Positions 1 to 28,065 of a stretch of DNA of 54,423 nucleotides are shown here, one piece after another (the first letter of the stretch is position 1; each line of letters begins with the position of its first letter). Origin of the DNA: Prorocentrum cordatum (taxonomy: Eukaryota). Below the pieces are notes generated by a model that did not search any database, had not been told where the DNA came from, and saw only the letters and a program-made list of their open reading frames with translations. The translations under genes and the position numbers were made by a program. The DNA is taken from positions 62,001 to 116,423 of the forward strand of contig CAUYUJ010000241.1 of NCBI GenBank assembly GCA_963575745.1, in the 5' to 3' direction.

Positions 1-181
1 GTGGCAGTCGTGGTCGGGCACATCTCGCTCAAGGTCTCCGTGGCGGACGAGAGAATATGTTGTTACTTGATCGGCTACGTCGTAGGGCCAGTTCCTGTTT
101 CTGTTCCTCCTCATCCTTCTCCACCTCCTCCTCCTTCCCATCCCCCACTCCTCCTCCTCCTCCTCCTCCTCCTCCTCCTCC

Positions 182-203
182 TCCGTAGCCATTTTGGCTC
201 AAG
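182..203 (+). other. Genomic copy of the dinoflagellate spliced leader (DinoSL) at the 5' end of LINE-A
   Basis: TCCGTAGCCATTTTGGCTCAAG is an exact match to the DCCGTAGCCATTTTGGCTCAAG consensus and directly follows a (CCT)n tract. Confidence 0.97.
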
Positions 204-345
204 GTTGAAACCTGCCCTGGGGCTTCAGCCTTGTCGCAGGCGACAGGGAGGCCCGAACCTTCCGAGGCCAGGACGCCTCTCTCCTTCCTGCCGTGCGCCA
301 CAGCACGCTCCCTGTTTTGGCTACAACGACGCGCGCTGAGCCGCC

Positions 346-1905
346 ATGGGCCCTGCCGCCTGCGACCGCCCGCACCATGTTGTACATCGTCTCGATGGTG
401 GTGAGGATGTTGATACGGAGATTGCTTCCTCTGGTGGCCGTGATTCCTCTGAGGAGCCCCGCCGCTCTGCCTCTCGGAGCGGTGGCAGCCGAGGTGCCCG
501 TCGTGCCGCTCGCACTCGGCCTCCCTCCCACGGCAACGCTGGTCCCGCCCTTGAGCCCTCTCGCCGTGCTCGCCGTGCTGGCCGCGCTCGTGGTGCTGGC
601 GGGGACGTCCCTGTGTCTCCTGGTGTTGCTGCCTCGCATCGGGGCCCCGACCCCGCGGCTCTGGGAGCATCTCGGGGTGCTCAGGCTATGCCCTTGGACG
701 AATGGGACGACACCAAGCGTGCACAAGTGGCTGCAGAACTCGAGATGGCTGCTACCTTCCCGTCGCAGGAGGCGCGGCCCGACCCGAATGCCACCCCGCA
801 GGGCCCTGCTGCTGGGCTCTTCGACCCCTGGGCCGCGGCGGCGGGGGCGGGCGCTGCCCCGCGGGCTCAGGCTGCTGCTTGTGGTGCTCCTGATTGTGGC
901 GAAGAGGAGGAGCATGCCGCCTTCACTCGGGCCTTCTACCATGCCGACATATCCGCGAGGTTCCTGCAGCTGCGCAATGAGTTCGACAATATCGTCACCA
1001 CGGCCATCACCAATTCTGTTCAGCAGTCTAACGCTCCCATCGTTGCCACGCTCGCCACACTTCAGAAGCAGCTCTCCTCGCAGCACACATCCATTGATCA
1101 GCAGGTCATGGCATCGGTACGTCCGCAGTTTGATTCCATGCAGCGCCAGTTTCAGGAGCAGCATGATGCCCTATGCCGTCGTGTCGACTACACTGAGCGG
1201 GACATCGAGGCCCAGGCTGCCAAACTGGCTGAGCTGCAGAAGCAGGTCGAGGAGCTACGCCGCCAGAATGAGTTGGATCGACAACTCCCGTCGCGTCCCC
1301 CTGCCCCTCCTGGTTTCGACCGCGAGATCGATCCGACGCAGGTCATTGTGGTCTCATCCAAGCTCGTCGGTTTGGCTGGCGTCCGTGAAGTGGTCAACTC
1401 CTTCTTGGGCGAGCTCAACTTCTCCGAGGACGACACGTACACGATCCAAGCACTCACGCCGCTCCCCGCCAAAAAGTTTGCCGTGTGCTTCTCTGGGCCG
1501 ATCGGGCTGGCTTCCCGACGTGTGCAAAAGGCCCTCGCTAACCTCAAGTCGGACGGAGCATGGCGGGTCTTTCAGTGCCCAGCTCAAGGTGCTGACCCAG
1601 CCCGTCTTCACTTTGGTCCTGACAAGTCGCCGAAACAAGTTCGTGGTGAGATGCTCCTTCGTAAGGTCCGCTCTTCCCTCATGGAGCTTGACAGTCAGAG
1701 AAAGTGGTTTGTCGATCGGGAGCGGGGTGTTCTTAAGTCTGACTACACCGACATCCTGCGTCTTGTCCCCCGGCCAGGCGATGAACCCCCTGAGCTCTCT
1801 TGGAACGACGTGGGGATCCGCGCCCTCGGCCTGGGCCGCCGTGACCCCCAGGATGCCATTCGGAACATCGCCACCGCGCCGACGGCCACCCAGTGGTGTC
1901 TTTAA
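346..1905 (+). CDS. LINE-A ORF1 (coiled-coil, putative nucleic-acid-binding protein), 519 aa
   Basis: First ATG after the SL, in GCCGCCATGG context. Heptad-like segment QRQFQEQHDALCRRVDYTERDIEAQAAKLAELQKQVEELRRQ. C-terminal part is homologous to the decayed ORF1 at 15230-15687. Confidence 0.82.
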   Translation: MGPAACDRPHHVVHRLDGGEDVDTEIASSGGRDSSEEPRRSASRSGGSRGARRAARTRPPSHGNAGPALEPSRRARRAGRARGAGGDVPVSPGVAASHRGPDPAALGASRGAQAMPLDEWDDTKRAQVAAELEMAATFPSQEARPDPNATPQGPAAGLFDPWAAAAGAGAAPRAQAAACGAPDCGEEEEHAAFTRAFYHADISARFLQLRNEFDNIVTTAITNSVQQSNAPIVATLATLQKQLSSQHTSIDQQVMASVRPQFDSMQRQFQEQHDALCRRVDYTERDIEAQAAKLAELQKQVEELRRQNELDRQLPSRPPAPPGFDREIDPTQVIVVSSKLVGLAGVREVVNSFLGELNFSEDDTYTIQALTPLPAKKFAVCFSGPIGLASRRVQKALANLKSDGAWRVFQCPAQGADPARLHFGPDKSPKQVRGEMLLRKVRSSLMELDSQRKWFVDRERGVLKSDYTDILRLVPRPGDEPPELSWNDVGIRALGLGRRDPQDAIRNIATAPTATQWCL

Positions 1906-4900
1906 CGCCATTACTGATCTATTTGTGCTTCCAGTGGGGCAGGTCGGCGGAGAGATCTCAGCCAGCCTCACATTCATGACTTGGAATGCACACGCTCTTC
2001 TCCAATTTGGTGGGGCGAAGGCCTCGCCCAAGCTATCTTATCTAAGTAAACTGCAACCTGGGCGATCCATCTTGGCTCTCCAAGAAGTGCATGCAGATCG
2101 ATTCGAGCTGAACGACTTTGTGGCAAGGCTTTCTTCCACGGCCATTGTCCACGGCAGCTTTTGTGAAGATGACGACGGCGAGGTTGTCCGCGGCTCTGGG
2201 GGAGTTGCAGTCATTCTTCCTCCTTTCTCATCTTCTTCGGTCAGTAGCTGCGCGGTGCCTCTGATCAGAGGCAGGGTGCTTCGTGTTGATGTGGCGCTTG
2301 GGCAGACACAGCTGGTGATCTTCAACGTTCACAATCACGGCCTGACCAAGGGGGAGGTACAATCTGTCTGTGAGCAGATCGATTGTGCGCTGCGTCGTGC
2401 TGCTGATGACCCACTCTCGTACTTTGTGGTTGTCTTGGGGGATCTCAACTACAGCTACGATTCTTCTCTTATCTTTCACCGACCTACTGGGGTGCAGAGG
2501 CAGCTGACACATGATCATAAAGTACATGCTCCAATCTGGGCGGCGACACTCGGCAAGATGATGGAGATTAACTCGGAGGCTGCGACTCACTTCTGCAAGT
2601 TCACCAACTCCATCAACATCATCGACCGCTTCTTCTGTTCTGCCACAGGCTGGATGATGTGCCAGCTCATGACTGAGGTTAACACTGTGGACACGCCTGA
2701 GCACCTGTGCTCCATGGGCATATCGGATCATGCTGCTCTCTCGATTCGGCTGCGTCTGCGAGGTGCGCGTCCTGCTGCTGAGCGACCCATCCCCAAGCAC
2801 ATATTCACCTCTGTTGAATTCCAGCGCCGACTCCGAGGAATGGTTGCTGATTGTAATGAGGATCTGCTCCGATGGGGTCCACCGGTGGCCACAGAGCACT
2901 ACAAGTACATGATGAAGGAGGCCGCCAGGGAGGCCCGCGACATCCTCTTCTTCTCGGCCCCTGACCTGCCTGGGACGTTACAGCTGGTTGCTCGTGGGAT
3001 AGCACGAGCGGTATGGCGTCAAGACGCTGCCCTTGCCCTCAGGCTCATCGAGACCTCCCAGCACGCCGCCGACGCCCTGGTGGTCGACAGCCAGGTCGTC
3101 TCGCTGCGCCACGCCCCGTCCTTCGAGCAGTGGGCTGCTGGAGTGCATCGGTTGGTCCTCGAAAAAGAGCTTGCTGCTGCTGCTGCCGATCGTGCTCCCT
3201 CAGGCTCCTCATCTGCCTGGCGGCCTCATTCGGCCACGCTCTTGGGAGCTATGGAGAGGAAGGCCTCAATATGGGCCCCGTTTTCGAAGCGCCTGATTCT
3301 GTCCGCGGTCAACACCCCTGAGGGCCCCATATCAGAGGTTCGGGAACGCACTGCGGCCCTGGCGGCCTACTGGACCCCTGTCTTCTCCAAGAAAGAGCCC
3401 CACCCTGTCATGACCCAGATGTACCTCGACAGGTTCCTCACCAAGGCCTCTGGCATCGACCTGCACTGTCCTCTGACCCCAGTGTTTCGTAAGGTTCTCA
3501 GGCGTGCTCGTCACTCTGCTCCTGGTGTCGACGGGCTGCCCTACGCTGCCTGGTCAGCATGTGACTATGGCGCCCAGCACCTGGCCAGAATGTTCGGATG
3601 GCTATGCCAAGGTCAGTCGTTGTTCGCCTCTGCCAGCGTCACCCTCCAGGCGTTCCTCCCCAAAGGTGCTGATGACTCTGATCTGCCGTCTGGGGTTTGT
3701 TCTCGGTCTCCCGATAAGATACGGGTTCTGGGGCTGCGTAACACCGACGTGAAGATTCTGAGCTCGGTCATGAATAGGGTCCTCGAGCCTGTTGTCCAAG
3801 CCGTTGCACCCGCTTCCCAGAGAGGCTTCATTAGAGGACGGAATTTTTGCTATAACGTGCTTGAGCTGGATGTCCACGCTCGACTTGCATCTCAACATCC
3901 CCTTGCTGTGCGTCGTTCCCCTGTCCTTGTCGGGTTCGACTACGGGCAGGCCTTCCCGAGCTTGTCGCAGTCCTTCCTGCTGCAACTATTGGGCTCCCTT
4001 GGGCTCCCTACCGAGATTCTTGCTTTCGTGGGATGGATGTATTTGGCTGTGGAAGGGGTGGTCCAGGATGGGGGATGCTACACGACCATCTTCTGGATCC
4101 GCTCGGGCATCATCCAAGGATGTGGCCTCTCGGGGTCTTTGTACGCTCTCGCCTCCTCCCCCATGCTGGCCGACCTCGAGCGGAGTATCGAGCAGCGTCA
4201 GCTGGGGATATGCCGTGCCTGTGCCGATGATCTAGGTGCTGTTCTGTATGAGCTTGCCTCTCTGCGCATCCTGGTGCGGGTCCTAGGTGTCATGGAAAAG
4301 ATTGCAGGCCTCAAGATTAAGATCAGCAAGTGCACCCTGGTCCCCCTCGTCGGCTGCATGACAGAAGCCCTGAAAACCATGACCCAGACCCAGCTGGCCT
4401 CCATCGCGAGTGGCTGGTCAGGCTTCGCTGTTGAGGGGTGGTTGCTTTATCTTGGGATGATCTTGGGCCCTGATGCGACGGTCGACATGAACTGGAGAGG
4501 CCCGCTCATGAAGGCACGTTCTCGCTCTCGGATGTTGGGGCGTGGGGTTGCGTCAGTCTGTACGAATTGTATCCTGTACCGCACGCGGGTTTACCCTTGT
4601 TTGGCGTATGTAGCCCAATTCCTCCCTATGCCCGAATGGTTCCTGCCCATTGAGCGTGGTGCTATCGCCCAAGTTCTTCGAGCTCCCCTCGGCCTCTTTT
4701 CGAACGAATCGATCCTGGAGCTCCCGGCCTGGGGTGGTCCTCAGATCCCATCGTGGGCTGCCCATACTACTGCTGCTCACCTACGTGCTGCTTTTCACAC
4801 CTTCCAGGGCTTTGAGGAATACTTACGGCTACTGCGACAAACGGCTTCGCTCTGGCACAGAGAAGTGGTGGAAGGGAAGTTTGATGCTATCCCCTTGGCT

Positions 4901-7708
4901 GCTATGGATCGCTCCCGCGTTTATCCAGCTTTCTGGAAATCCCCTGCGTTCGTCGAACACCTTGAGCTGGTCCATGTGAGGTCTCAGGAGCCCCTACTCG
5001 TCGCCGCTCGCTCTGCCATGCGTGAGGAAGCTCAGGTTACGACACGAAGGCCCAAGCTGCAGCGTGCGGCTGCCCGCTCGCTGGGTCAGAACATGTGTGC
5101 GCACAAACCTCTTCAGGCTATGCTGATTCGCCACTTAACCCCGTTGTTCACAGCTTACCTCCCCTTCCTCAACCTGATCCACTGGCCCGCTATTCAGGAG
5201 CTTCTGGCACTGGTTCCGCAAAGTTGGGCGATGGCTGCCTTACGGACTTGGGGGCATGGTTGGTTGACATCTCATAGGATTATCCACCCGAGGGGTAAAC
5301 TACGTTGTCGTTTCGGATGCCCTGGCCCTGATCGGCTGCAACATTATCTACGCTGCCCTAAATTATACCTGGCAGTCAGCAAAGGTCTACAGCGTGCCCT
5401 GCCTCGTCCCCTGGCTCAGCGTCTTGGCCTTACACACCCCCACCCTGACCACTTCGAAGCTCTCTATGTCTATTACCAGGTCTTCAACTATGCTCGGCAA
5501 GGTGCGCTAGTGTCGACTCCTCGTCAGTTGCGTGGCGATGTCGAGGCCGCTGTCCGCACCTCTCGTCTGGCCAGACCCTCAGCCAAGTTAAAACGGTGGG
5601 AACCTCCTCCTGCTGTCCAGACGATCCGCCGAAGGCAGCCTCAGAGGAATGTGCTCACCTCCTCGTCCACCTCCAGTTTGAGTTCTGACGCTGCGGCCCC
5701 CATCCCTAACCTGGTCCCACCCACTCCGTGTATCGACGATGTGAGACATAGCTCTGATGAAGTCGGCCAACCTGCTCCCCACCCAGAGCCGCCTGTGTCC
5801 CTGCCTGCTGGCGCTTTGGCTCAGTGCGAGGCCCTGCCCCCACGGCAGGGCGTCAACGTGCGGACGCCCGTTTCCGCCGCTACCTTGCCGCGACCTGCGG
5901 CATCCATGTTCGCGTGGCCGCTGGCCGCCACAGTGGTGCTCTCCGCGGTCCACGCAACGCCGATAGCTGTCCCAACCACTTGTGAGGCGGATGTTACGCG
6001 GCTTGAACGTGAATATCGTGCGACCATCAGTCGTGTCGAACGCCTTCGTGCTGGTGGGCTCCCTGTTCGAGAGGACCATGCTCTTCCTGAACAGTTGCGA
6101 TGTTTGGGCGATGCCACCACGTCGAAGTCGACGCCGTCACCTGGTTCTCCCTTCCTGTGCCTGGCGGGCCACCCACCTGCTTCCTCTGCGGAGCATGCAC
6201 CACCTGTTGTCTTCGGCGAACGTATTGCATCAAGGGCTACACGCTGGGTCTTGCGCCTGGATGACTCCGAGAGCGGCCGTGCCGACTGGTTGATGTGGTG
6301 CATCCTGTATGTGCGTGCAAAATTTGTTGCGAGGGAATGGGTGGATTCGTCTGGTTGGAGTGGTACGCTTGACGAGCTCGCTCGTCATATCTGCATGGTT
6401 GCCTGGGACACCTCTACCGAAGGGCGCCTCAATATCGTAGATTACTATCGGTGGCTGAATGACCCGAGTAACTCCTTGACGCGACACGGGCTCTGGGAAG
6501 AGATGGTGGATCGACATTTCCAGGCCCTTCGTGAGATCCGCAGAGAGATGAGGCAATACTTGGGACCCGCTGCGCCACACCGTGTTCGGGACTTCCTCGT
6601 GGACAGCAATGGAGACGAGGCCCTGCCCATCGCTGCTGCCAACGGGTCGGTGCACTATTTTGCCCCACTAGTCTCTGCAGTGGATCCTGATGATGGAGAT
6701 GCCGCCAACGGAGATGGAGACGTCGACCCTGCCTCTTTCCTCCTCCAGGTTTCGGTTGCAGGGTGCTCCTCGAGCCCTGCGGCCACTGGCGTTAGAACGC
6801 GGAGGTCGACCGCCTCTGTTGGAAATAACGGCTCTGGAGTAAGTTGCGAGCTTGCGTCTCGAGTTCGGAGGTCGACCGCCTCTGTTTTAAATAAGGGCTC
6901 TGGAGTAAGTTGCGAGCTTGTGTCTCGAGTTCGGAGGTCGACCGCCTCTGTTCTAAATAAGGGCTCTGGAGTAAGTTGCGAGGTCTCGTCTCATGTACGG
7001 TGGCCGACCGCCTCTGATGGAAATGAGGGCTCAGCCTTCGAGAGTTGCGCCGTCTTCGAGAGTTGCGCCGACGTCAAGTGTTGCGCGATCATGGTGAATT
7101 GCCCCGTCTTCGAGAGATGCGCCGTCATCGAGAGTGTCTCCGTCAACGAGAGTTGCGCCGTCTTCGAGGGTTGCACGCCATCATCGAGAGTTGCGCAGTC
7201 TCGGAGAGTTGCGCCGTCGTCACGAGTTTCGCCGACTTGGTCACGGATCGCTTCCCTCTTCGCTACTCTCCCGTGCTCGTCTTCCCCGACCTGGCCGAGT
7301 TCGACGGCTGCTGGCTCATCGATTGTCCCCTGTCCGACGTGGATGGCGGGACCCTCCTCCTCGATTTCGCCTCTGACGAGAATTTCGTCGTCAATGTCAT
7401 GCAGTGCTACTCCAACTTCTCCTATTGGCTTGAGTTCTGGTACAGGAGTTGGGGGCACCCTTAGATTGCCCCACATGTGTGAGTGCCGTCGGAAAAGGCC
7501 CCAGTCGCCCATTTTCCTTATCCGTTCTCTGCGCCTTGCCTCGATCCCCTCCTTCGTCCGCGCTCCCTCCTGCTCTCAGCATCCTCTGAATGTGAATGAT
7601 ATAAATTTGACGGCTATCCGCCGCGCATCGTGTCCTGCAGCTACGGCGGCCTCAGCTACAACAGCTTCGACAGGAGGCGTGCCCATGCTGCCTCAGGCGC
7701 CGTGCTAG
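377..7708 (+). CDS. LINE-A ORF2 polyprotein: AP endonuclease, reverse transcriptase, CCHC-like knuckle, long C-terminal extension (start uncertain: ATG 377 or 1976)
   Basis: APE motifs TWNAH, LQEVH, VLGDLN, IDRFF, SDHAAL. RT motifs SAPGVDG, QRGFIRGR, FDYGQAFPSL, GIIQGCGLSG, CADD, GLKIKISK, YLGM. Zn motif CRFGC-x8-H-x3-C. The frame is open from 293 to 7708. Confidence 0.92.
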   Translation: MLYIVSMVVRMLIRRLLPLVAVIPLRSPAALPLGAVAAEVPVVPLALGLPPTATLVPPLSPLAVLAVLAALVVLAGTSLCLLVLLPRIGAPTPRLWEHLGVLRLCPWTNGTTPSVHKWLQNSRWLLPSRRRRRGPTRMPPRRALLLGSSTPGPRRRGRALPRGLRLLLVVLLIVAKRRSMPPSLGPSTMPTYPRGSCSCAMSSTISSPRPSPILFSSLTLPSLPRSPHFRSSSPRSTHPLISRSWHRYVRSLIPCSASFRSSMMPYAVVSTTLSGTSRPRLPNWLSCRSRSRSYAARMSWIDNSRRVPLPLLVSTARSIRRRSLWSHPSSSVWLASVKWSTPSWASSTSPRTTRTRSKHSRRSPPKSLPCASLGRSGWLPDVCKRPSLTSSRTEHGGSFSAQLKVLTQPVFTLVLTSRRNKFVVRCSFVRSALPSWSLTVRESGLSIGSGVFLSLTTPTSCVLSPGQAMNPLSSLGTTWGSAPSAWAAVTPRMPFGTSPPRRRPPSGVFNAITDLFVLPVGQVGGEISASLTFMTWNAHALLQFGGAKASPKLSYLSKLQPGRSILALQEVHADRFELNDFVARLSSTAIVHGSFCEDDDGEVVRGSGGVAVILPPFSSSSVSSCAVPLIRGRVLRVDVALGQTQLVIFNVHNHGLTKGEVQSVCEQIDCALRRAADDPLSYFVVVLGDLNYSYDSSLIFHRPTGVQRQLTHDHKVHAPIWAATLGKMMEINSEAATHFCKFTNSINIIDRFFCSATGWMMCQLMTEVNTVDTPEHLCSMGISDHAALSIRLRLRGARPAAERPIPKHIFTSVEFQRRLRGMVADCNEDLLRWGPPVATEHYKYMMKEAAREARDILFFSAPDLPGTLQLVARGIARAVWRQDAALALRLIETSQHAADALVVDSQVVSLRHAPSFEQWAAGVHRLVLEKELAAAAADRAPSGSSSAWRPHSATLLGAMERKASIWAPFSKRLILSAVNTPEGPISEVRERTAALAAYWTPVFSKKEPHPVMTQMYLDRFLTKASGIDLHCPLTPVFRKVLRRARHSAPGVDGLPYAAWSACDYGAQHLARMFGWLCQGQSLFASASVTLQAFLPKGADDSDLPSGVCSRSPDKIRVLGLRNTDVKILSSVMNRVLEPVVQAVAPASQRGFIRGRNFCYNVLELDVHARLASQHPLAVRRSPVLVGFDYGQAFPSLSQSFLLQLLGSLGLPTEILAFVGWMYLAVEGVVQDGGCYTTIFWIRSGIIQGCGLSGSLYALASSPMLADLERSIEQRQLGICRACADDLGAVLYELASLRILVRVLGVMEKIAGLKIKISKCTLVPLVGCMTEALKTMTQTQLASIASGWSGFAVEGWLLYLGMILGPDATVDMNWRGPLMKARSRSRMLGRGVASVCTNCILYRTRVYPCLAYVAQFLPMPEWFLPIERGAIAQVLRAPLGLFSNESILELPAWGGPQIPSWAAHTTAAHLRAAFHTFQGFEEYLRLLRQTASLWHREVVEGKFDAIPLAAMDRSRVYPAFWKSPAFVEHLELVHVRSQEPLLVAARSAMREEAQVTTRRPKLQRAAARSLGQNMCAHKPLQAMLIRHLTPLFTAYLPFLNLIHWPAIQELLALVPQSWAMAALRTWGHGWLTSHRIIHPRGKLRCRFGCPGPDRLQHYLRCPKLYLAVSKGLQRALPRPLAQRLGLTHPHPDHFEALYVYYQVFNYARQGALVSTPRQLRGDVEAAVRTSRLARPSAKLKRWEPPPAVQTIRRRQPQRNVLTSSSTSSLSSDAAAPIPNLVPPTPCIDDVRHSSDEVGQPAPHPEPPVSLPAGALAQCEALPPRQGVNVRTPVSAATLPRPAASMFAWPLAATVVLSAVHATPIAVPTTCEADVTRLEREYRATISRVERLRAGGLPVREDHALPEQLRCLGDATTSKSTPSPGSPFLCLAGHPPASSAEHAPPVVFGERIASRATRWVLRLDDSESGRADWLMWCILYVRAKFVAREWVDSSGWSGTLDELARHICMVAWDTSTEGRLNIVDYYRWLNDPSNSLTRHGLWEEMVDRHFQALREIRREMRQYLGPAAPHRVRDFLVDSNGDEALPIAAANGSVHYFAPLVSAVDPDDGDAANGDGDVDPASFLLQVSVAGCSSSPAATGVRTRRSTASVGNNGSGVSCELASRVRRSTASVLNKGSGVSCELVSRVRRSTASVLNKGSGVSCEVSSHVRWPTASDGNEGSAFESCAVFESCADVKCCAIMVNCPVFERCAVIESVSVNESCAVFEGCTPSSRVAQSRRVAPSSRVSPTWSRIASLFATLPCSSSPTWPSSTAAGSSIVPCPTWMAGPSSSISPLTRISSSMSCSATPTSPIGLSSGTGVGGTLRLPHMCECRRKRPQSPIFLIRSLRLASIPSFVRAPSCSQHPLNVNDINLTAIRRASCPAATAASATTASTGGVPMLPQAPC
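6800..7031 (+). repeat. 66-bp in-frame tandem repeat (about 3.5 copies) in the LINE-A ORF2 tail
   Basis: CGGAGGTCGACCGCCTCTGTT...GGCTCTGGAGTAAGTTGCGAG starts at 6800, 6866, 6932 and (degenerate) 6998. Confidence 0.9.
7039..7235 (+). repeat. Degenerate 18-bp tandem repeat (CGAGAGTTGCGCCGTCTT)
   Basis: Repeated GAGAGTTGCGCCGTC units, translating as FESCAV-like repeats. Confidence 0.8.
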
Positions 7709-7919
7709 GCGCAGGGAGCTGACCTCTGGGTACGCTGGTCTCCTCCTCCTCCTCCTCCTCCTCCTCCTCCTCCTCCTCCTCCTCCTCCCGTTCCTCCCCC
7801 TCCTCCTCCTCCTCCTCCTCCTCCTCCTTCTCCTCGCCCCTCCTCCTCCTCTTCCTCCTCCTCCTCCTCCTCCTCCTCCTCGCCCCTCCTTCTCCTCCTC
7901 CTCCTCCCCCTCCTCCTCC

Positions 7920-7941
7920 TCCGAAGCCATTTTGGCTCAAG
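7920..7941 (+). other. DinoSL copy (1 mismatch)
   Basis: TCCGAAGCCATTTTGGCTCAAG, a T>A change at position 5, preceded by (CCT)n. Confidence 0.93.
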
Positions 7942-8482
7942 CGAGCCCGGCGGACGGGAGGCCCCCGCGGCGCGCGCCCGGGGCGGCGCTCGGGCGCGCA
8001 GGCGGCCATCATGGAACCGGAGGGTCGGCGCGCGCGGGCGGCCAGGTCGGCGCGGACCCTGGCCCGTCGCCTGCGGCGCCGGTGGCGTGCGGAGGCGGGG
8101 CCCACCCGGGCGGGGGCGCTGCGACGGCGCACAGGGCTGCTGCGCCGCTCGCTTGTGGCGCATTGGGCCCTTCGCGACAGGATCGGAGCGCGCATCCCTG
8201 CGATGGCTGGAGCTATACGTGCCTACGAGCCTTCTTGGCCTCGACGGTCAGCTGGATTACGCCTACGAGGACCTGCACCTTGGTGGCTGGGCACGTCACG
8301 CGCCTCCCCCTAAGGCTAGGTGAGCGGCCGCGCTGCCCCCGCTGGCAGTCCGCGCCCACGTCTTCGAGGACTTCAGGGGCAAGCTCTGCAGCGAGGGCTA
8401 CACTGGCGAGGCGGAGCAGAAGCCGCTGCGATGCCAGACGTCCAATGAGACGGCGACGGGCGAGCAGTACGAGGAGCTCTTC

Positions 8483-9364
8483 GTGGACCCGAAGCCTGAC
8501 GTCGAGAGGAATAAGAGGGAGGTCGAGATCGTGACGCGCCATGCGGGGACCGTCGAGCGGCCGAAGTCCGACTTCATGCTGCAATCGGTCGCCCAGAGCG
8601 CTGCCCAAGACTGTCAGAAGCTCGTGGAGAAGCCGTCGGCTGAGTCCGACGAGAAGTGCTTCCACATCAACCTGGAGACGAAGGAGTCCGTGGATTCCGC
8701 TGGGAGGAGCACCAACGTGGTTGGCGTCAGCGAGGTTGGCTTCGACGAGACGAAGCACACCGTCAACCAGGTGCTCGACGCGACGCTCTTCACGAAGAAG
8801 GGCGATTCCGCGGAGCTCGCCGCCGAGAAAGACGACAACGTGTCCGTCGATCCGCTCTCCACGAAGAAGTGCGACAGCGAGAAGCAGGTGCTAAAAGTCA
8901 GTGACGACGTGGGCGTCGGCGGCATAGCCAGCAGCGTGGTGCCGTACACCGTCGACCAGGTGATCGGTGAGGGGCTCGCCACGTGCAAGGGCGAGATTGG
9001 CAGCAGGATGCTGGATGACAGAATCGACGAGGTGGTGCAGGATGCGGAGCTGCGCGACGAGGACGTGTTGGTCCTGGACCAGCTCACCCCGAAGCAGCAG
9101 ATGGCGAACCTGGTGATCACCACGGAGAGGAAGTGCTGCGAGATCCTGAGGGCCATGCAGAGCGGTCGTTGCCCGATGTGCTTGGTCAACGAGCTCAGCC
9201 TGCAGAATTGTGGCCTAGTTTCGGGCGCGCAGCTGGACGAGGTCGACCTCTTCTGCGAGATGTGCGAGAACGGCATCGGATTCTCCCCGATGCTCTTGTG
9301 TGGGGGCTGTGGAGGCGCGCTCCACAAGGAGTGCTTCAACGAGCAACTCATCCCCACGGACTGA
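8483..9364 (+). CDS. Acidic protein with a C-terminal Cys/His zinc finger (PHD-like, incomplete); start uncertain
   Basis: 293-aa ORF with coding-like GC3 bias. C-terminus CPMC...CEMC-x11-CGGC-x4-H-x2-C. GTG start, so the true 5' part may be frameshifted. Confidence 0.55.
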   Translation: MDPKPDVERNKREVEIVTRHAGTVERPKSDFMLQSVAQSAAQDCQKLVEKPSAESDEKCFHINLETKESVDSAGRSTNVVGVSEVGFDETKHTVNQVLDATLFTKKGDSAELAAEKDDNVSVDPLSTKKCDSEKQVLKVSDDVGVGGIASSVVPYTVDQVIGEGLATCKGEIGSRMLDDRIDEVVQDAELRDEDVLVLDQLTPKQQMANLVITTERKCCEILRAMQSGRCPMCLVNELSLQNCGLVSGAQLDEVDLFCEMCENGIGFSPMLLCGGCGGALHKECFNEQLIPTD

Positions 9365-9549
9365 GCAGCAGGCGTATGGCGCTTGCAGTCGTAAAGGCCC
9401 CCCGGAGGGTCGTCGGATTATGTTTCCGTGTGCTGCTGGCGCGTTGTGGGGCGCAGCTTTCTTGAATGGCCGTTTGGGGGTCGTCGGATTTCGGCTCCGT
9501 GTTCGGTGCGGGGCAAGCTCTCAGACTTCCGCTGTCTTCAGCCTGATCG

Positions 9550-10065
9550 CTCCTCCTCCTCCTCCTCCTCCTCCTCCTCCTCCCCTCCTCCCTCCTCCCC
9601 CTCCCCCTCCTCCTCCTCCTCCTTCCTCCTCCTCCTACCTCCTCCTCCTCCGCCTACTCCCCCTCTCCTTCTTCTCCTCCGCTCCTCCCCTCCCCCTCCT
9701 CTCCTCCTCCTCATCCTCCTCCTTTTTCCTTCCCCTCCTCCTCCTCCTCCTCGTCCTCCTCCTCCTCCTCCTTCTTCACCTCCTCCTCCTCCTCTCCTCC
9801 TCCCTCTCTCCTCCTCTCCTGCTCCTGCTGTTCCTCCTCCTCCTCCTCCTCCTCCTCCTCCTCCTCCTCCTCCTCCCCACCTCCTCCTCGTCCTCCTCCT
9901 CCGCCTCCTCCTTCTCCTTCTCCTCCTCCTCCTCCTCCTCCTCCTCCTCCTCCTCCTCCTCTTTCTCCTCCTCCTCCTCCTTCCAGATGTTCGTACCCCC
10001 ATCCGTCTCCTCTTTCTCCTTCTCCTTCTCCTCGCCCTCCTCATCTTCCCCCTCCTTCTCTCATC
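9550..10065. repeat. Degenerate (CCT)n microsatellite tract
   Basis: About 500 bp of CCT-derived pyrimidine sequence. Confidence 0.95.
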
Positions 10066-14699: not shown

Positions 14700-17600
14700 G
14701 GCGCAGCGGCCCCGTCTTGCGGGGCAGCGACGTGGGGCCCGCCAGCGCTGCCAGCGCCGACGCGCAGCTCAAGCTGGCCGTCGCCATCCGACGCGCCATC
14801 GTGCCCGACGTGGCGGATGCCCTCCAGCCCGCCGAGCGAGCCGGTCGAGAACGGCCCCCTCGCCAACCCAACCTGAGTAGAGATCCCCGGCGCGACGCAG
14901 CTCAACGAGGCGCGCTGGGCAACCTCAAGCGCGAGCTGGGGCAGCTTCTCGCCGCGCTGGTCGCTGCTGCCTCCGCGACTTGCAAGTCCACCGCAGAGCA
15001 GGTTTGCGCTGCCGCCCAGACAAGGTTTCTCGAGCATGTCACCAAGATCTCGCCATCCCTCAACCAAAGGCAGGACGGGGCAAAGGGCGACATCGCTGCC
15101 TTCAAGCAATGCATGGACGTATCCGCGAAGGAGCACGTTTTCCTCAACCGCGCTGTGGACTCGCTCAAGACCTCCATCGCACGCGCAGAAGCTCAAGTAC
15201 CCAGCATGGACGTCGCCAACCTGGGACGGTGGGACCGCCCTGGGCAGATCGGCACCTTCTGGCGTGGCTCAGCGGTGGACATCGCCCAAGCCGCTCTTTA
15301 GCAAGTCACGCAATTATGTGTTTTTTTTCTTTTTCTGCAGCTGGTATCGACGCTTCCACGGTGCGCCGTAACAATGCCACGCCGAGCAAGCGCGTCTGCA
15401 TCTCTGTCCTCGGAGGGAACGCTGTCGCCTTTCCTCGTGCTCGAGCTCTACATCATCACCTTCGCATTGGCAGGCAATGGAGGGCATTCTCCATCGTGCA
15501 CGAGGGCGCGCCCCTCCCGCTCTACATCAGCGCCAGCAAGTGCCCGAAACTTGTTCGGCGGGAAATCCACGCCAAGAAGCTCGCCAAGCTGCCGGCGAAC
15601 GCCGAGCCCGACATCAACGCGCGGGTGCGCCGCGCGGATGGCTTGATCTCGGTCGATGGCACGGCCGCCGCCGGGCTCGCGCCCTGAAGAAGCTACCGCG
15701 GTTCCGTGGTCTGACGCTGCTGCGCGCGCTGGTCTGTCTCCTGCCGCGCAAGCTACAGTCGCAGAAGCCCTCGCCCACGCCTGCGCGGACCCCGCTGCTG
15801 CAGTGTCGTGCTTCGACAGCAAGTGGGCCCTTTGGGCTTCATCATCCACCCTGCCGAATGCTCCATCGCCTGCTGGAATGCGCAGGGCCCCCCTGCGCTC
15901 CCAGCCCACCCAGCGTGCCAACAAGCACTCCACCCTCACCCCCTACTTGGCCAAGAATTCGCTCATTGCGATCCAGGAGGTCCATGGCAATGAGCAAATG
16001 CTACGCATGTTCGTCAACGCCGCAGCCACGAAGTATCACGTCTTCCTGAGCAGCCCGCCTGACGACGTTGACATATCGGCAAGCCTCGCTGCGGGCAGTG
16101 GAGCGAGTTCCCGTGCAGGTGGAGTTGTCTGCCTCGTCCCCGGTTGCTCTCGCTCGTCTTCTGGCGTTGACCAGCGTCCCGACTTCCCCTGTTCGAGCAG
16201 CATCCTTGTGCGCATCGCCGGATTGCGCATTCGTGACCATTTACGACAATTTCCACACATCTAATTCAACGTGCGCCACGACGGCTTGAAGGCTGAAGAC
16301 CGTTCGAAGTTCGACCGCGCATGGCGCGCTGCAGCTGAAGCGGCTGCTTCGGACCCAGGCCAGAATCTACGATTCGTGCTCGGAGGCCCCAATGTCGCTG
16401 AACAACCCACTCGCAACCTGCCCCGCCCCGTCGGCGCCAAAACGAGCGAGCGTTGACGGTATCAGCCCACACTTTGGAAGCAGATCTTCCGCGGCATGGC
16501 GGAGATATGCGCGCCCACTACTACTCGCAGTTGCTACGCTAACCGCGCCGAGTCGGCCATCGACCGCTTCTTCGCATCATCCGAGGCGCGCATTTTACCG
16601 CGTCTAGAAACGATCACGGTGGCGGGCGGCCCCCCGCTGGAACGGCGCGGCAAGGCGGCCATTGGCCATGAGCTACCACGAGTCAGCTTTCGACCGCGCG
16701 CTCAACGCCCACGCGCTGAGCGAGGCATCCCCGCGCTCATCTTCAAGTCCAGTCTCTCCAAGCACTTCATCGACCGGCTCTCCGCGGACACCGATTACAG
16801 CGCGCTCGCTCCTGTCGGCAAGTGCAGGGCTCTCAAAGCGAACGTCGCGCGCGCTGCTGTTCGAGCGCGCGGCGCTCTCCAACATTTACCTCCCGAAGTT
16901 CCCTATGCAAGCCACGGCGACGATGCTGGGCAGGTCAGTTCCATGGTCTTGCGCAGTGTGGCTAGAGCCGTCTGGTACCAGAACGGCAAGATGGCTCAGC
17001 TTTTGGTCGCGGGCACGCACCTCGGACTTGAGCACGTGCGCACCCAGCAGTCCAACGATAGTGGTTTTCCGTCGGTCACCGTCGGTCTAGCAGTGCTGAT
17101 AGATTCGCCGCGGTCGCTGATGTGACGCTGCTGATGAGAGACGCAATCACGCTGCCGCTCAAGCCCGAGAAGCATACCAACGGCATCAACGTCAACGAGG
17201 TGGCGGGCTCGCGCTAGCGCCACTCGCCCTCGCGGGGAGCTTTGGAAACCATTGGCTGAGCGTCTGGTTCTTGCAGGCACCCGCATCTCCAGGGGTTCTG
17301 ATGGAGCTATCTCCAAGACGCCAGCCGATATGGCGCACTGGGCCCCGATCTTTGGGGACAAGCTTGTCAACGTCATGAACGTGAAGTCCTGCCTCGACAC
17401 GGCTTTCGTTTCCAAACGACAGAATGGCATCGCGTTTCCTATTGTGGAAGACCTTCAGCACGCAGCTAAACACGCGTGCGACTCAGCTCCTGGCCCTGAC
17501 GGTTTACTTCACCAAGCGCTGCCGCACTACCCCTCAAAACTTCGAGATCCTTGGCGAACTTACAAACCGCATCAGTCATGGATGCCCCGCCCCCTTTGAG

Positions 17601-19998
17601 TGGAATTTCTCGTTGTTCGCAATGCTACTTAAAGGCGACGAGCCTGCTGGCATGTCTACGACCCTTGGCCATGAATAGCACTGACTTCGGCAGCCAACGC
17701 GAATCTACTTCCACTCATGCAATAATTTTCTGCTATTCAACGCTGTTTTGCTCCGAGACGGCAACTCCTCAACAACATGGTCGATGTCGACACTTACAGC
17801 CGGCTCTACCGCGTGGGAGGCAGCGCCGGCCCGTCTCTCCCTTGCTTCTTGGGCATGGAGATCGCAGCCGTCTTCCCTGGCTTGCTCCACTCCTGGCTCT
17901 GGGGAGTCATCGCAAGGTGGGGTACCACTGGCAACTTCCTCAAGCTCCTGCGCGCGTTCTAGACTGTGCCCATCGCCTTCCTTGAGCTCGGAAGCATCCG
18001 TCGCCCGCTACTGGTTGCTGAAAATGGGGTTGCACAGGGCTGCCCACTAAGCGGCACTATATTGGCGCTCATGTTCGAACCGATTCTGCGCGGAATCCAC
18101 GCCCACCTCACACACATTGGCCGTGGCATGGCCAGCGCATGTGCTGACGACGTTGGATGTGTATTAGACAAGCTTCGCGACAGACGTGGCAACCGACCTC
18201 ATGTATATGCTGCAGAGCAACATGCTGGACTACATCTTCAACCGCAAGTGTGTGCTGGTGCCCGCTTGGACCGGATGGCACGCCCACATCGCCGACAAGT
18301 TGCGCGACACGCTGCGCGACATCCACGAGGACTGGGCTTTCTTTAATATCGTCAATATGGCGAAGTACTTCGGTGTTCACGTCGGCCCTGGAGTCATCAG
18401 CAGCTTCCAAATGGTTCCACCGATCCCACATACTGGGAGATGCGCACGCTTCCATACAGCAAAACATCATGCTGCACAACACCTCGGCCATCACATGCTT
18501 ATCGTACGTTGGACAGTTCTTTCCCGCTCCCGAAATGAAATTGACATAAGAAATTCACGTGTTACGCAAGATCAGCCGCTCCGCACCGTCGGATTTCACC
18601 AAGCTTAATCTCCTGAGCATAAAAATATGGGCTGGCGATGGAAAACCGATGGGCGTCGAGGTTCTCATGGGCGCCACCATCTGGCGTGCTGCTACTCCTC
18701 CACGCGCTGCTCCACGCTACAGCTGAAGAACATCTCCCACTACTTCGAGTGGCACAAGGTAAAAAGAGTGCTGCCGGCTGGAGATCTCACACATTGGTGG
18801 CCCAACACCTTCAGCGAGCTGCGCGAGGGCACAACTACCCCGCGGAGAAGGGCTCCACGTTCAAGATCATGACGCGCAAGCTCAATTACCCTCAGCGTGC
18901 CCTTGAATATGTTCGTCGTGGACATCAACACGCTCGCGTCGCTGCATCGGAAGTGCGCCATCCCTGCCACGCCCGACACGAAGCCGGAGCTGACCGCCCC
19001 CGAGGTACCAATCGCAAGTCGGCACAATCCGCATACGCTCACGTACTACAACGCATGCTCTTCGAGGATAGTGTCGACATCGTGATCGCCAAACGATTGC
19101 GAAGCTGGTTCCCGCTGCTGCCGAGCGCCCACTTTCATGCGGACAATTCGAATGCTCCACCTAGCCGGCCTGCTGCCGCCTCAGATGATGCCTCGGAACA
19201 ATACTTCCGAGAAGCAGGCACCGAGCTCGGGACTATCACAGAAATTCTACACCACTGGGCATCTGACTGGCTCCCGAATCTCTACACCGACAACGAGGGC
19301 ATCTCCAGCGAAGCTGACTGGAACAATTGGTGTCTGCGCTCTGTCATCCGTCTTCTACGTCGCCGCAGCATGCAAGTTCTGTTTCCAGCTGCACTAGGCG
19401 ACGTACTGGACTCCTCGCCCGGGCTCGACGCATCTGCTGGGAGGCATGGGTCTCTGCCTCTTCCAATCGCAATCATCGCGCGCGGACCTTCAGCGGCACC
19501 AGATCTGCTGAGCTCCCAGCACAATTCGACAATGTCATGACCGAGCACCTGGCGTGTCGCCGATGGGTCCTTGAGGCTGACATTGAGAACGGCCCCACCT
19601 GTTCTATTCCCGGCCCCAACATGGATGTCACCGAGGATTCCAGCTACAACAACGACATGACCATGCTCCTGCAGCTGTCGAGCACCGCGGCCCCTGGCGC
19701 CGCCTTCGCGCCGAGATCGCACGGCTTCCACCTGCACACTTCTGGCCAGTGATGAGGACTCTCGCAGGAGGGTGGGCCATATCGCATCGACTACATGTAC
19801 AACCAGATCGGCGAGGGTGCGCATTCAAGCACATTATCGCGCGACTTTCGGTCGCTTATCGCACGTACCACCCAATTGAACAACGGCGACTTCACGGTCG
19901 CCAACAGCTATCATAACATCAACAACATCGTCCAGGCCTCCCGCGGCGCTCTGAGGCTCGACGCCTCTGTGCTCGGCGGCGCGGCGGTCATTCCATGA
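14700..19998 (+). mobile_element. LINE-C: decayed full-length relative of LINE-A (boundaries approximate)
   Basis: ORF1 remnant LYISASKCPKLVRRE matches LINE-A LHFGPDKSPKQVRGE. APE WNAQG, IQEVHG, IDRFFAS. RT SAPGPDG, GVAQGCPLSG, CADD, KYFGVHVGP. Many stops and frameshifts. CCT tracts near both ends. Confidence 0.88.
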
Positions 19999-27578: not shown

Positions 27579-28024
27579 TATTACGAATTGTAACATGCAG
27601 CGCTGACGGCCGACCACGCGATCACAAGCACCGACCACCAACAACCAAGCACCGCCACACCGACTACTGGCGCCTTGCGCCAGCATCAACACCAAACCTA
27701 GCACAGACGACCAATTCAGACTCCACACAACGACGCGGCACGAACACACCACGACATCGACTACAAGCATTCCTCCCCCTCCTGCCCTCCCCTTTCGTTT
27801 CACATAACTTTTTCTGTCTCGCATGCATGTATTTCCATACACAATAGTATTTCAGAGGCCAAGGCCTCGTTCACCTGGTCTCCAGTAGGCCTGGACTGCT
27901 GTCCGCACCGGAGGTCATTCGTTCGTTCCTCCTTCCTCCTCCTCCTCCTCCTCCTCCTCCCCCTTGTCCTCCCCCTCCTCCTCCCCTTCCTCCTCCCCCT
28001 CCTCCTCCTGCTCCTCCTCCTCCC

Positions 28025-28061
28025 TCCGTAGCCATTTTGGCTCAAGCCATTTTGGCTCAAG
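28025..28061 (+). other. Full DinoSL (28025-28046) plus 15-nt relict SL (28047-28061)
   Basis: TCCGTAGCCATTTTGGCTCAAG followed by CCATTTTGGCTCAAG. Confidence 0.97.
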
Positions 28062-28065
28062 ACCC

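What the first reader, a model, noticed from the sequence alone, without database searches (positions are those of the whole stretch)
293..1976. LINE-A ORF2 frame is open across the whole of ORF1 (about 1.55 kb dual-open overlap)
Seen: the ORF2 frame has no stop from 293 to 7708 and overlaps all of ORF1 (346-1905) in the +1 frame. ATG 346 (ORF1, GCCGCCATGG) is followed 31 nt later by ATG 377 in the ORF2 frame. The APE domain starts only at about 1970. Inference: about 520 stop-free codons in the +1 frame is more than I would expect from GC content alone. It suggests ORF2 is made by leaky scanning with a long overprinted N-terminal extension, or by a +1 frameshift, rather than by the usual reinitiation.
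Basis: partly seen in the sequence, partly recalled or inferred. Interest (0 to 1): 0.72.

Follow-up and report, generated by a model that had tools for sequence, protein, structure and literature searches.

The report
LINE ORF2 frame open across ORF1
In dinoflagellate LINE retrotransposons the reverse-transcriptase reading frame is kept free of stop codons across the whole upstream ORF1 gene and has its own start codon beside ORF1's, which suggests both proteins are started from the 5' end of one mRNA rather than by the reinitiation seen in human L1.

Summary
The ORF2 frame is open 209-7708 and covers all of ORF1 (346-1905). Synonymous shuffles of ORF1 expect 5.6 stops in that frame, and 0.02-0.3% of shuffles have none.

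An unrelated intact LINE in the same window (28026-35127) shows the same thing: 6.3 stops expected, 0 observed.

Both elements start with a dinoflagellate spliced-leader (DinoSL) relic, so they are cDNA copies of trans-spliced mRNA.

A metagenome scan with the leader gave 26 leader-headed ORFs. Six have one alternative sense frame with no stop; the other 20 have stops near expectation. All three LINE-A ORF1 homologues in that set are among the six, and a fourth homologue (L037) behaves the same.

In 9 of 9 elements the first two AUGs after the leader are ORF1's AUG and an AUG in the open frame.

The extension's amino-acid sequence is not conserved; only its openness is.

Best reading (about 0.55): dual initiation by leaky scanning. 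This gives ORF2p a long, non-conserved N-terminal extension.

Rival or addition: a +1 shift at the ORF1 stop, which reads CUU-UAA-C and CUU-UAG-C in the two window elements.

No translation data exist. I rate this a new variant of a known kind.

The parts
104..182 (+). (CCT)n-rich tract directly upstream of the element
   Evidence: Read. It is 95.7% alike to the tract before the second LINE. It may be the target site or the 3' tail of an upstream unit.
183..203 (+). DinoSL relic, exact 21-mer: the 5' end of the retro-copied, trans-spliced LINE-A mRNA
   Evidence: 0 mismatches, and 0 matches expected in shuffles. The DinoSL sequence and the relic concept come from passages of PMC7245778.
204..345 (+). 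LINE-A 5' UTR. It has no AUG. The last stop in the ORF2 frame is at 206-208.
346..1905 (+). LINE-A ORF1 (519 aa), with a helical or coiled-coil middle part and a C-terminal domain
   Evidence: Of 26 family differences, 20 are synonymous in this frame. Homologues are P0003/5/6/7 and L008, L020, L037 and L059.
377..409 (+). Three AUGs (377, 395, 407) in the ORF2 frame. They are AUGs 2-4 of the mRNA and are the proposed ORF2 start.
   Evidence: The N-terminus MPCIVSMV of gene model P0005 matches the translation from AUG 377, with a second M at the place of AUG 395, which suggests both are kept in another copy. A family variant at 409 removes the third.
209..7708 (+). Open ORF2 frame (2499 codons). 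Nt 377-1975 would be a non-conserved extension, followed by endonuclease, RT and the C-terminal part.
1900..1906 (+). ORF1 stop context CTT TAA C, a candidate +1 'shifty stop'
   Evidence: CTT is 8 of 519 ORF1 codons.
1976..2665 (+). AUG 1976 and the endonuclease (Exo_endo_phos) domain
   Evidence: E 2.1e-5, 24.8 bits against a cut-off of 24.5..
3710..4342 (+). Reverse transcriptase domain (RVT_1)
   Evidence: E 6.4e-13. The best solved relatives are human L1 ORF2p, E 2.4e-9.
7740..7922 (+). (CTC)n tract after the 31-nt 3' UTR, followed directly by a third DinoSL relic at 7921-7941
28026..28061 (+). Second LINE ('LINE-C'): a full DinoSL plus a truncated relic
28066..28068 (+). LINE-C first AUG of the mRNA. 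It is in the ORF2 frame, in the context CCCAUGC.
28197..29447 (+). LINE-C ORF1 (416 aa). Its AUG is the second of the mRNA (GCCAUGG). It ends CTT TAG C.
27889..35127 (+). LINE-C open ORF2 frame (2412 codons), +1 relative to ORF1. RVT_1 lies at residues 1385-1596.
   Evidence: There are 0 stops against 6.3 expected over ORF1. Between the ORF1 stop and AUG 30178 this frame has 0 stops and the other two frames have 8 each.
14881..18650 (+). Degenerate relative of LINE-A ('LINE-B'). ORF2 is again +1 of ORF1, but the copy is dead.
   Evidence: There are 2 ORF2-frame stops over ORF1 and 10 in the ORF2 body.

Best explanation
LINE-A is an L1-like, endonuclease-type LINE of a dinoflagellate; the closest named proteins are from Prorocentrum cordatum. 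Its mRNA is trans-spliced to the dinoflagellate spliced leader.

The element carries two overlapping cistrons that both start near the 5' end. Most scanning ribosomes start at the ORF1 AUG (346). A minority start at the next AUGs (377, 395), which lie in the ORF2 frame.

Because that frame has no stop, these ribosomes read through the whole ORF1 region. They make a basic, non-conserved extension of about 530 residues and continue into the endonuclease and reverse transcriptase. Selection therefore removes every stop from the ORF2 frame over ORF1, by synonymous codon choice in ORF1. It does not conserve the extension's amino-acid sequence.

In the second LINE of the window the order is reversed. 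The first AUG, in a weak context, opens the ORF2 frame, and the second AUG, in a strong context, opens ORF1.

Shown: the stop-free frame, its statistical excess, its recurrence in independent elements, the AUG order, and purifying selection on ORF1 only.

Inferred: that ribosomes really start at the second-frame AUG and that the long fusion is the active ORF2 protein.
For: 1. Stop depletion is specific to the ORF2 frame in two unrelated LINEs of the window. Stop-free shuffles are 0.02-0.3% for each element, while the other four alternative frames are at expectation. The two ORF2 bodies show no general avoidance of +1-frame stops: 38 against 46.7 expected, and 35 against 36.9.

2. Independent sample. 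I scanned metagenome contigs with the DinoSL 21-mer (126 stretches) and tested 26 leader-headed closed ORFs of 200 codons or more. Six have one alternative sense frame with 0 stops:
- L008: 3.5 stops expected
- L015: 2.2
- L020: 5.3
- L059: 7.0
- L025: 25.9
- L057: 14.3
The other 20 have 4-20 stops in +1 and 2-48 in +2, near expectation. L037 has 0 against 8.0 expected.

3. L008, L020 and L059 are LINE-A ORF1 homologues by jackhmmer. L037 is one by tblastn, E 1.6e-13. So 4 of 4 diverged homologues keep the +1 frame open.

4. In 9 of 9 elements the first two AUGs after the leader are ORF1's AUG and an AUG of the open frame. That AUG lies 131 or 101 nt upstream, or 5-52 nt downstream, of the ORF1 AUG. 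It is never in the third frame.

5. In 8 of 9 elements the open frame has a stop in or just before the 5' UTR, then none for 1000-7000 nt.

6. ORF1 is the conserved frame. Of 26 family differences in the overlap, 20 are synonymous in ORF1 and 21 are non-synonymous in the ORF2 frame. None creates a stop.

7. The second-frame translations show no pairwise similarity at E <= 10, while some ORF1s do (A-L008 and L059-L008).

8. In LINE-C the 730 nt between the ORF1 stop and AUG 30178 have 0 stops in the ORF2 frame, against 8 in each of the other two frames. Two out-of-frame AUGs lie in between. That argues against simple reinitiation there.
Against: There is no direct evidence of translation. No RNA run was listed for this stretch.

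Both window elements also have an AUG directly before the endonuclease domain (1976, which is 71 nt after the ORF1 stop; and 30178). In L059 an AUG lies one base after the ORF1 stop. A conventional ORF2 start therefore exists.

The ORF1 AUG of LINE-A is in a strong vertebrate-type context, so leakage would be small. The context rules for dinoflagellates are unknown to me.

The LINE-A extension begins with a very hydrophobic stretch, which would be odd on a nuclear enzyme.

The shared CUU-stop-C ending of the two ORF1s is not explained by this model.

For L015, L025 and L057, membership in LINEs rests only on an ORF1-like zinc-finger plus coiled-coil look; no ORF2 is on those contigs. L008 (P 0.01) and L015 (P 0.045) are weak on their own.
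Confidence: 0.55

Rival explanations
1. ORF2 is made as an ORF1-ORF2 fusion by a +1 ribosomal frameshift at the ORF1 stop codon, a 'shifty stop'. The peptidyl-tRNA on CUU slips to UUU while a poorly recognised stop followed by C waits in the A site. This could act alone or together with 5' initiation.
For: ORF2 is +1 of ORF1 in all three LINEs of the window.

The two unrelated intact ORF1s end CTT TAA C and CTT TAG C, although CTT is only 8 of 519 and 2 of 416 codons. LINE-B ends CCC TGA A.

Among the seven +1-class elements, C follows the stop in 5, against 5 of 20 control ORFs.

Passages of PMC5009743 say that a C after the RF2 shift-site stop is highly conserved and important, and that Euplotes shifts +1 at stops.

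All five database ORF1 C-termini end ...TQWCL.
Against: It needs the ORF2 frame open only downstream of the stop, so it does not explain the selected absence of stops across 1.0-1.6 kb upstream, or the paired AUGs.

In L025 and L057 the open frame is -1, not +1.

The last sense codons of the others vary: GGG, UCC, AUU, GGG and GUC.

Folding of the 121 nt from each stop is not better than shuffles (z -1.3, +1.3 and +0.5).

The motif was noticed after the fact.
Confidence: 0.17
2. ORF2 is translated as in human L1 or SART1, by termination at the ORF1 stop and reinitiation at the AUG just before the endonuclease (1976; 30178). The open upstream frame would be irrelevant to ORF2 expression. It might, for example, prevent harm from ribosomes that start at the second-frame AUGs.
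For: An in-frame AUG lies directly before the endonuclease domain in both window elements. In L059 one lies one base after the ORF1 stop, and the frame then reads a WNA.ALL motif like the LINE-A endonuclease start.

Reinitiation-type routes are the described ones for L1 and SART1 (passages of PMC3894237).
Against: It gives no reason for 0 stops where 5.6-26 are expected in elements of independent lineages.

In LINE-C the candidate AUG is 730 nt from the ORF1 stop, with two out-of-frame AUGs in between. That interval is open only in the ORF2 frame.
Confidence: 0.13
3. The open frame has no function. It is chance, or a by-product of composition and codon usage in GC-rich ORF1 genes.
For: The +1 frame of a GC3-rich gene has few potential stops (5.6 expected, not 15). 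Long alternative-frame ORFs are common in this 60% GC window.
Against: Stop-free shuffles are 0.02-0.3% under five nulls in each of two unrelated elements.

It is replicated in elements at 47-56% GC (L059, L020, L037, L025 and L057).

It is absent in 20 of 20 other leader-headed ORFs and in both ORF2 bodies.
Confidence: 0.04

Closest known systems
Human LINE-1 (L1)
   Same: Both have ORF1 followed by an ORF2 with an endonuclease and then a reverse transcriptase. Human L1 ORF2p is the best solved relative of the RT region (E 2.4e-9). ORF1 has a helical middle part and a C-terminal domain.
   Different: L1 is described as having two non-overlapping ORFs (abstract of PMC4091050, seen in the listing). 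From my own recall, not from a call here, ORF2 is reached by an unconventional termination/reinitiation. Here the ORF2 frame has no stop back to the 5' UTR and has its own AUG beside ORF1's. The 5' end is a trans-spliced leader. The 3' end is a (CTC)n tract, not poly(A).
SART1 of Bombyx (UAAUG stop-start coupling)
   Same: It is a LINE in which ORF2 translation is coupled to ORF1. In L059 an AUG lies one base after the ORF1 stop.
   Different: [quoted passage not shown] Here the overlap is the whole of ORF1.
Leaky-scanning overlapping genes of viruses, for example sobemovirus ORF2a and the hepadnavirus polymerase ORF starting inside the core ORF
   Same: Two frames are read from one capped mRNA. 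The second AUG is the next AUG after the first, or the first AUG is in a weak context. The product of the replicase frame is the minor one.
   Different: The sobemovirus case is from the abstract of PMC3791421 (listing). The hepadnavirus case is recalled, not checked here. In those viruses both overlapping products are functional proteins. Here the overlapped part of the second frame shows no sequence conservation. It appears to be only a translated spacer.
Shifty-stop +1 frameshifting (bacterial prfB CUU-UGA-C, antizyme UCC-UGA, Euplotes AAA-UAA; Ty1 CUU-AGG-C)
   Same: ORF2 is in the +1 frame, and the ORF1 stops read CUU-UAA-C and CUU-UAG-C. L059 reads UCC-UAA-C.
   Different: The exact motif sequences of prfB, antizyme, Ty1 and Euplotes are recalled. 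PMC5009743 (passages) supports only the role of the C after the stop and Euplotes shifting at stops. No stimulatory structure was found. Two elements have a -1 relation.
DinoSL-tagged retrogenes of dinoflagellates
   Same: There is a full DinoSL, or a DinoSL plus a truncated relic, at the 5' end of the genomic copy. This matches what is described for re-integrated transcripts (passages of PMC7245778).
   Different: Here the tagged transcript is the LINE itself, not a cellular mRNA that it copied.

Membership tests
Endonuclease-type non-LTR retrotransposon (LINE), L1-like | Reverse transcriptase domain | tested here: met
   RVT_1: E 6.4e-13 in LINE-A and E 1.4e-11 in LINE-C.
Endonuclease-type non-LTR retrotransposon (LINE), L1-like | N-terminal apurinic-type endonuclease domain in ORF2 | tested here: met
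   LINE-A: Exo_endo_phos E 2.1e-5, 24.8 bits against a cut-off of 24.5. LINE-C: no Pfam hit for this domain, so this is met for LINE-A only.
Endonuclease-type non-LTR retrotransposon (LINE), L1-like | Upstream ORF1 under purifying selection | tested here: met
   20 of 26 family differences are ORF1-synonymous. Diverged homologues were found. There is no Pfam family, and an AlphaFold model of the C-terminal half was unusable (pLDDT 42), so an L1-type RRM fold is not shown.
Endonuclease-type non-LTR retrotransposon (LINE), L1-like | Placement in the L1 clade by RT phylogeny; target-site duplications | not tested
   The only evidence is that the best solved relatives are human L1 ORF2p, ahead of R2. 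No tree was built and no duplications were sought.
Leaky-scanning dual-coding mRNA | The second frame's AUG is the first or second AUG of the mRNA, with no AUG of a third frame between | tested here: met
   9 of 9 elements.
Leaky-scanning dual-coding mRNA | The second frame is open from that AUG to the functional domain | tested here: met
   LINE-A 377-7708 and LINE-C 28066-35127. In the seven metagenomic elements it is open to the contig end.
Leaky-scanning dual-coding mRNA | Both start codons are used by ribosomes | not testable with these tools
   No ribosome profiling, proteome search or RNA run was available.
+1 programmed frameshift at a shifty stop | Downstream frame is +1 and open from the stop | tested here: inconclusive
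   Met in 7 elements and not met in 2 (L025 and L057 are -1).
+1 programmed frameshift at a shifty stop | Slippery last sense codon and weak stop context, conserved | tested here: inconclusive
   The contexts are CUU-UAA-C, CUU-UAG-C, GGG-UAA-C, UCC-UAA-C and GGG-UAG-C, but also AUU-UAA-U and GUC-UAA-G.
+1 programmed frameshift at a shifty stop | Stimulatory RNA structure nearby | tested here: not met
   z-scores -1.3, +1.3 and +0.5 against shuffles. Not all known +1 sites need one.
L1-type bicistronic termination/reinitiation | ORF2 frame closed upstream of its AUG (inter-ORF spacer with stops) | tested here: not met
   There is no ORF2-frame stop between 209 and 1976, or between 27889 and 30178.

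The most novel reading that the evidence does not exclude
Dinoflagellate LINEs as a group have given up the bicistronic ORF1-stop-ORF2 design. On a spliced-leader-capped mRNA, ORF1 is nested inside a single giant ORF2 reading frame. The ratio of the two proteins is set by which of two neighbouring AUGs the scanning ribosome takes. The 350-760 overlapped codons of ORF2 are a selected 'stop-free spacer' with no conserved sequence.
Probability: 0.5. Interest if true: 0.8.

Novelty: new variant of a known kind. Interest (0 to 1): 0.74.

Why it matters
How LINEs translate ORF2 from a bicistronic mRNA is a long-standing question. It has been answered only in part for human L1 and SART1. Here the sequence itself points to a different solution, and it makes the question testable in a new lineage: insert an ORF1-silent stop or remove one AUG.

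It is also an unusually clean natural example of selection on 'openness' of a frame without selection on the encoded sequence.

There is a practical side too. Dinoflagellate genomes are full of such elements. The public gene models that match this ORF1 are chimeras of the two frames, so annotation pipelines mis-handle them.

Tried and rejected
- Whole genome of the window: none is held.
- Other copies of the family at DNA level. Metagenome scan with ORF1: 104 pattern matches, none confirmed. Viral-contig scans with both ORF2s: nothing.
- Read laying gave only short contigs, about 5% diverged. Only 40 of 464 differences were shown, so per-copy frames could not be rebuilt. No listed run holding the stretch is on record as RNA.
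- Protein databases. The frame-2 extension has no relatives except the chimeric gene models (P0003 cluster) and one 65-aa piece. No full-length ORF2 relatives of 1374-4374 aa matched residues 400-800. Two earlier tries of that search timed out.
- ORF1 identity. No Pfam family. PDB gave only helical look-alikes at E > 0.04. The AlphaFold model had pLDDT 42 and was not used. The ESM Atlas gave unnamed clusters or nothing.
- RNA structure after the ORF1 stops is not better than shuffles.
- 2A-like NPGP motif between the extension and the endonuclease: none seen by eye in the translations.
- Internal trans-splicing that would give an ORF2-only mRNA: the loose ends shown near 1846-2023 do not look like the leader, but most loose ends were not shown.
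- Earlier notes of this scan: nothing found.
- Literature. Seven searches listed no paper describing ORF1 nested in the ORF2 frame, or leaky scanning for a LINE ORF2. These searches cover only the held open-access library, and supplements were not read.

Full report
**1. The observation**

A stop-to-stop scan shows the ORF2 frame open from 209 to 7708 (2499 codons). ORF1 is open in the frame one base behind it, from 340 to 1905, with its ATG at 346.

The ORF1 AUG is in GCCGCCATGG. The next three AUGs (377, 395, 407) are all in the ORF2 frame.

Pfam finds the endonuclease at residues 590-819 of the long product, so it begins at the AUG at 1976. The reverse transcriptase is at residues 1168-1378. 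The best solved relatives of the RT region are human L1 ORF2p, E 2.4e-9.

**2. Is it more than chance?**

- Base composition alone predicts 14.7 stops in the 589 codons before 1976.
- The fairer null keeps the ORF1 protein and its codon pool. Synonymous shuffles give a mean of 5.63 stops in the +1 frame, with none in 0.045% of 20000 shuffles. Codon permutation gives a mean of 6.36 and 0.05%.
- Shuffling only within blocks of 30, 60 or 120 codons gives 0.28%, 0.08% and 0.04%. Drawing codons from the usage of the two ORF2 bodies gives a mean of 10.2 and 0.02%.
- The depletion is confined to this one frame. The +2 frame has 26 stops against 25.7 expected, and the antisense frames are at expectation.
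- The two ORF2 bodies have 38 and 35 stops in their own +1 frames, against 46.7 and 36.9 expected. So there is no general avoidance.
- The mechanism is visible in codon choice. In the two ORF1s every NTN codon followed by A ends in C (18) or T (1), 19 of 19. In the ORF2 bodies NTG|A occurs in 29 of 72 and 22 of 67.

**3. A second, unrelated LINE in the window shows the same thing**

At 27889-35127 there is another open frame of 2412 codons with an RT domain. A 416-codon ORF1 (28197-29447) lies inside it, again one base behind. tblastn and blastn find no similarity to LINE-A apart from the leader region.

Shuffles expect 6.3 stops over ORF1 and 0 are seen. That occurred in 0 of 10000 shuffles and in 0.04% of 5000.

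Between the ORF1 stop and the AUG before the endonuclease-like region (30178), the ORF2 frame has 0 stops. The other two frames have 8 each, and two out-of-frame AUGs lie in between.

A third LINE, a 25%-identical relative of LINE-A at about 14881-18650, also has ORF2 in the +1 frame. It is dead: 10 stops in the ORF2 body and 2 over ORF1. It says nothing about selection.

**4. The elements are copies of trans-spliced mRNA**

The exact 21-base dinoflagellate spliced leader sits at 183-203. It sits again at 28026-28046, followed there by a truncated relic. A one-mismatch copy is at 7921-7941. None is expected by chance. The leader sequence and the meaning of relics are as described in PMC7245778 (passages).

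This fixes the 5' ends of the mRNAs. LINE-A has a 142-nt leader without any AUG. LINE-C has 135 nt with one AUG, at 28066, which is in the ORF2 frame.

The closest proteins in the databases are unnamed products of Prorocentrum cordatum, 91% identical to ORF1.

**5. Which frame is conserved?**

Short contigs of four public runs, about 5% diverged, were laid on 150-3400. Only the 40 best-supported of 464 differences were shown.

Of the 26 that fall in the overlap, 20 are at ORF1 third positions (binomial p 7e-6). They are synonymous in ORF1, and 21 of 26 change the ORF2-frame residue. In the ORF2 body 8 of 11 are synonymous in the ORF2 frame. None of the differences creates a stop in either frame.

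So ORF1 is a real, constrained protein. The overlapped part of the ORF2 frame is kept open but not conserved. One contig has a 1-base deletion at 663.

**6. An independent sample**

The ORF1-based metagenome scan found nothing, so a second scan was allowed. I used the leader 21-mer (126 stretches, 144 leader sites). This choice does not look at reading frames.

tblastn with the ORF1s hit L037 (E 1.6e-13) and L059. Iterated jackhmmer added L020 and L008.

I then tested every leader-headed closed ORF of 200 codons or more from its first AUG, 26 in all. Six have one alternative sense frame with no stop:

| Locus | Open frame | Stops expected | Shuffles with no stop |
|---|---|---|---|
| L008 | +1 | 3.5 | 0.01 |
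| L015 | +1 | 2.2 | 0.045 |
| L020 | +1 | 5.3 | 0.0005 |
| L059 | +1 | 7.0 | 0 of 2000 (0 of 10000) |
| L025 | +2 | 25.9 | 0 of 2000 |
| L057 | +2 | 14.3 | 0 of 2000 |

The other 20 have 4-20 stops in +1 and 2-48 in +2, close to expectation.

L037 was not among the 26, because its ORF1 carries one internal stop. It has 0 stops against 8.0 expected (0 of 10000 shuffles).

All four LINE-A ORF1 homologues therefore keep the +1 frame open to the end of their contigs, at 48-56% G+C.

In L059 the open frame, just after the ORF1 stop, reads a WNA.ALL motif that aligns with the start of the LINE-A endonuclease (11 of 30 identical, pairwise E 0.001).

L015, L025 and L057 have a zinc-finger-like motif and a coiled-coil-like stretch, as LINE-C ORF1 does. 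They show no detectable homology to it and no ORF2 lies on their contigs. Their status as LINEs is inferred.

**7. The start codons**

In 9 of 9 elements the first two AUGs after the leader are the ORF1 AUG and an AUG in the open frame.

- Upstream of the ORF1 AUG: at -131 (LINE-C) and -101 (L037).
- Downstream of it: at +5, +7, +13, +23, +31, +52 and +52.
- It is never an AUG of the third frame.

Where the second-frame AUG comes first, it lacks a purine at -3 (C, T), while the ORF1 AUG has G at -3 and G at +4. Whether vertebrate context rules hold in dinoflagellates I do not know.

In 8 of 9 elements the open frame has a stop in or just before the 5' UTR, then none for the rest of the sequence held.

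The second-frame translations are Ser/Leu/Pro/Arg-rich and basic, and have no pairwise similarity at E <= 10. Some ORF1s do match each other (A-L008 and L059-L008).

**8. Mechanism**

The simplest account of all this is dual initiation on one capped mRNA. ORF1 is made from its AUG. ORF2, with a long non-conserved extension, is made from the neighbouring AUG in the other frame. Every step after 'the frame is selected to be open and has a 5' AUG' is inference.

**9. The rival worth keeping**

The two unrelated ORF1s of the window end CTT TAA C and CTT TAG C, although CTT is rare in them (8 of 519 and 2 of 416 codons). L037 ends GGG TAA C, L059 TCC TAA C and L015 GGG TAG C.

This looks like a shifty stop for +1 frameshifting. 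Passages of PMC5009743 stress the C after the stop in the RF2 case. It would give an ORF1-ORF2 fusion.

It does not explain the open frame upstream. It is not shared by L008 (ATT TAA T) or L020 (GTC TAA G), and it cannot serve the two -1 elements. I found no RNA structure after the stops. It may be an additional route.

Reinitiation at the AUG before the endonuclease (1976; 30178; one base after the stop in L059) also remains possible as an additional route. It gives no reason for the open frame.

**10. Comparison and novelty**

By domains the element is an endonuclease-type LINE nearest to L1. The clade was not tested by phylogeny. What differs from every LINE arrangement I could find in the review PMC3894237 (passages), or recall, is that ORF1 lies wholly inside the ORF2 reading frame.

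Seven literature searches listed no such description. That covers only the held library. I rate it a new variant of a known kind.

**11. Limits**

- There are no translation or RNA data.
- The family-level check within the host rests on 40 displayed differences.
- The metagenomic contigs are short, so ORF2 is seen only in the two window elements and hinted at in L059.
- Three of the nine elements are LINEs by inference only.

Noticed in passing
window 183-203, 7921-7941, 28026-28061: There are three DinoSL relics. Two head intact LINEs, so the LINE mRNAs themselves are trans-spliced and re-integrated. LINE-C carries a full leader plus a truncated relic, which means at least two rounds.
   Followed up: yes
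window 104-182, 7740-7922, 27930-28025, 35175-35570, and many more (e.g. 9550-10050, 37723-38007, 42670-43061): Each leader relic is directly preceded by a (CCT)n-like tract. Both LINEs end in a short 3' UTR followed by such a tract instead of poly(A). This suggests a microsatellite 3' tail, insertion into (CCT)n targets, or both. Units lie head to tail.
   Followed up: partly
window 1900-1906 and 29442-29448: The two unrelated ORF1s both end CTT + stop + C. This is a candidate +1 shifty stop.
   Followed up: partly
ORF1 stops of the 9 elements vs 20 control ORFs (table): None of the 9 ORF1s ends in TGA (6 TAA, 3 TAG), whereas 10 of the 20 other leader-headed ORFs end in TGA. This is a small sample and unexplained.
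   Followed up: no
L025 and L057 (metagenome loci): These are leader-headed ORFs with a zinc-finger-like motif and a coiled-coil-like stretch. Their fully open second frame is -1 rather than +1 (25.9 and 14.3 stops expected, 0 seen). The contigs end before any ORF2 domain.
   Followed up: partly
proteins P0003, P0005, P0006 (public gene models matching window 377-1905): These gene models start in the ORF2 frame (MPCIVSMV..., VPVVPLALG...) and switch to the ORF1 frame at AMPYE.WDD. They are chimeras of the two overlapping frames, probably a prediction artefact.
   Followed up: partly
proteins P0008-P0013: These are short ORF1 fragments in the same 90%-identity cluster as the Prorocentrum cordatum ORF1 model P0003. 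They are filed in EukProt under a Pyramimonas sp. transcriptome. That points to either contamination of that data set or transcription of this LINE family in it.
   Followed up: no
window 6800-7238: The C-terminal tail of the LINE-A ORF2 frame holds tandem repeats: 66 nt x 3.5 and 18 nt x 11. Both periods are multiples of three and both arrays are in an open frame.
   Followed up: no
window 663 (contig of run X6): One related copy lacks one base here. That would join the ORF1 start (AUG 346) to the open ORF2 frame and leave ORF1 to start at AUG 688. It may be a variant copy or a contig error.
   Followed up: no
window 7942-12200: The third leader relic heads a GC-rich unit with several overlapping open frames. 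One has a weak PHD-finger match (E 0.0013, below the cut-off). Its nature is not resolved.
   Followed up: no
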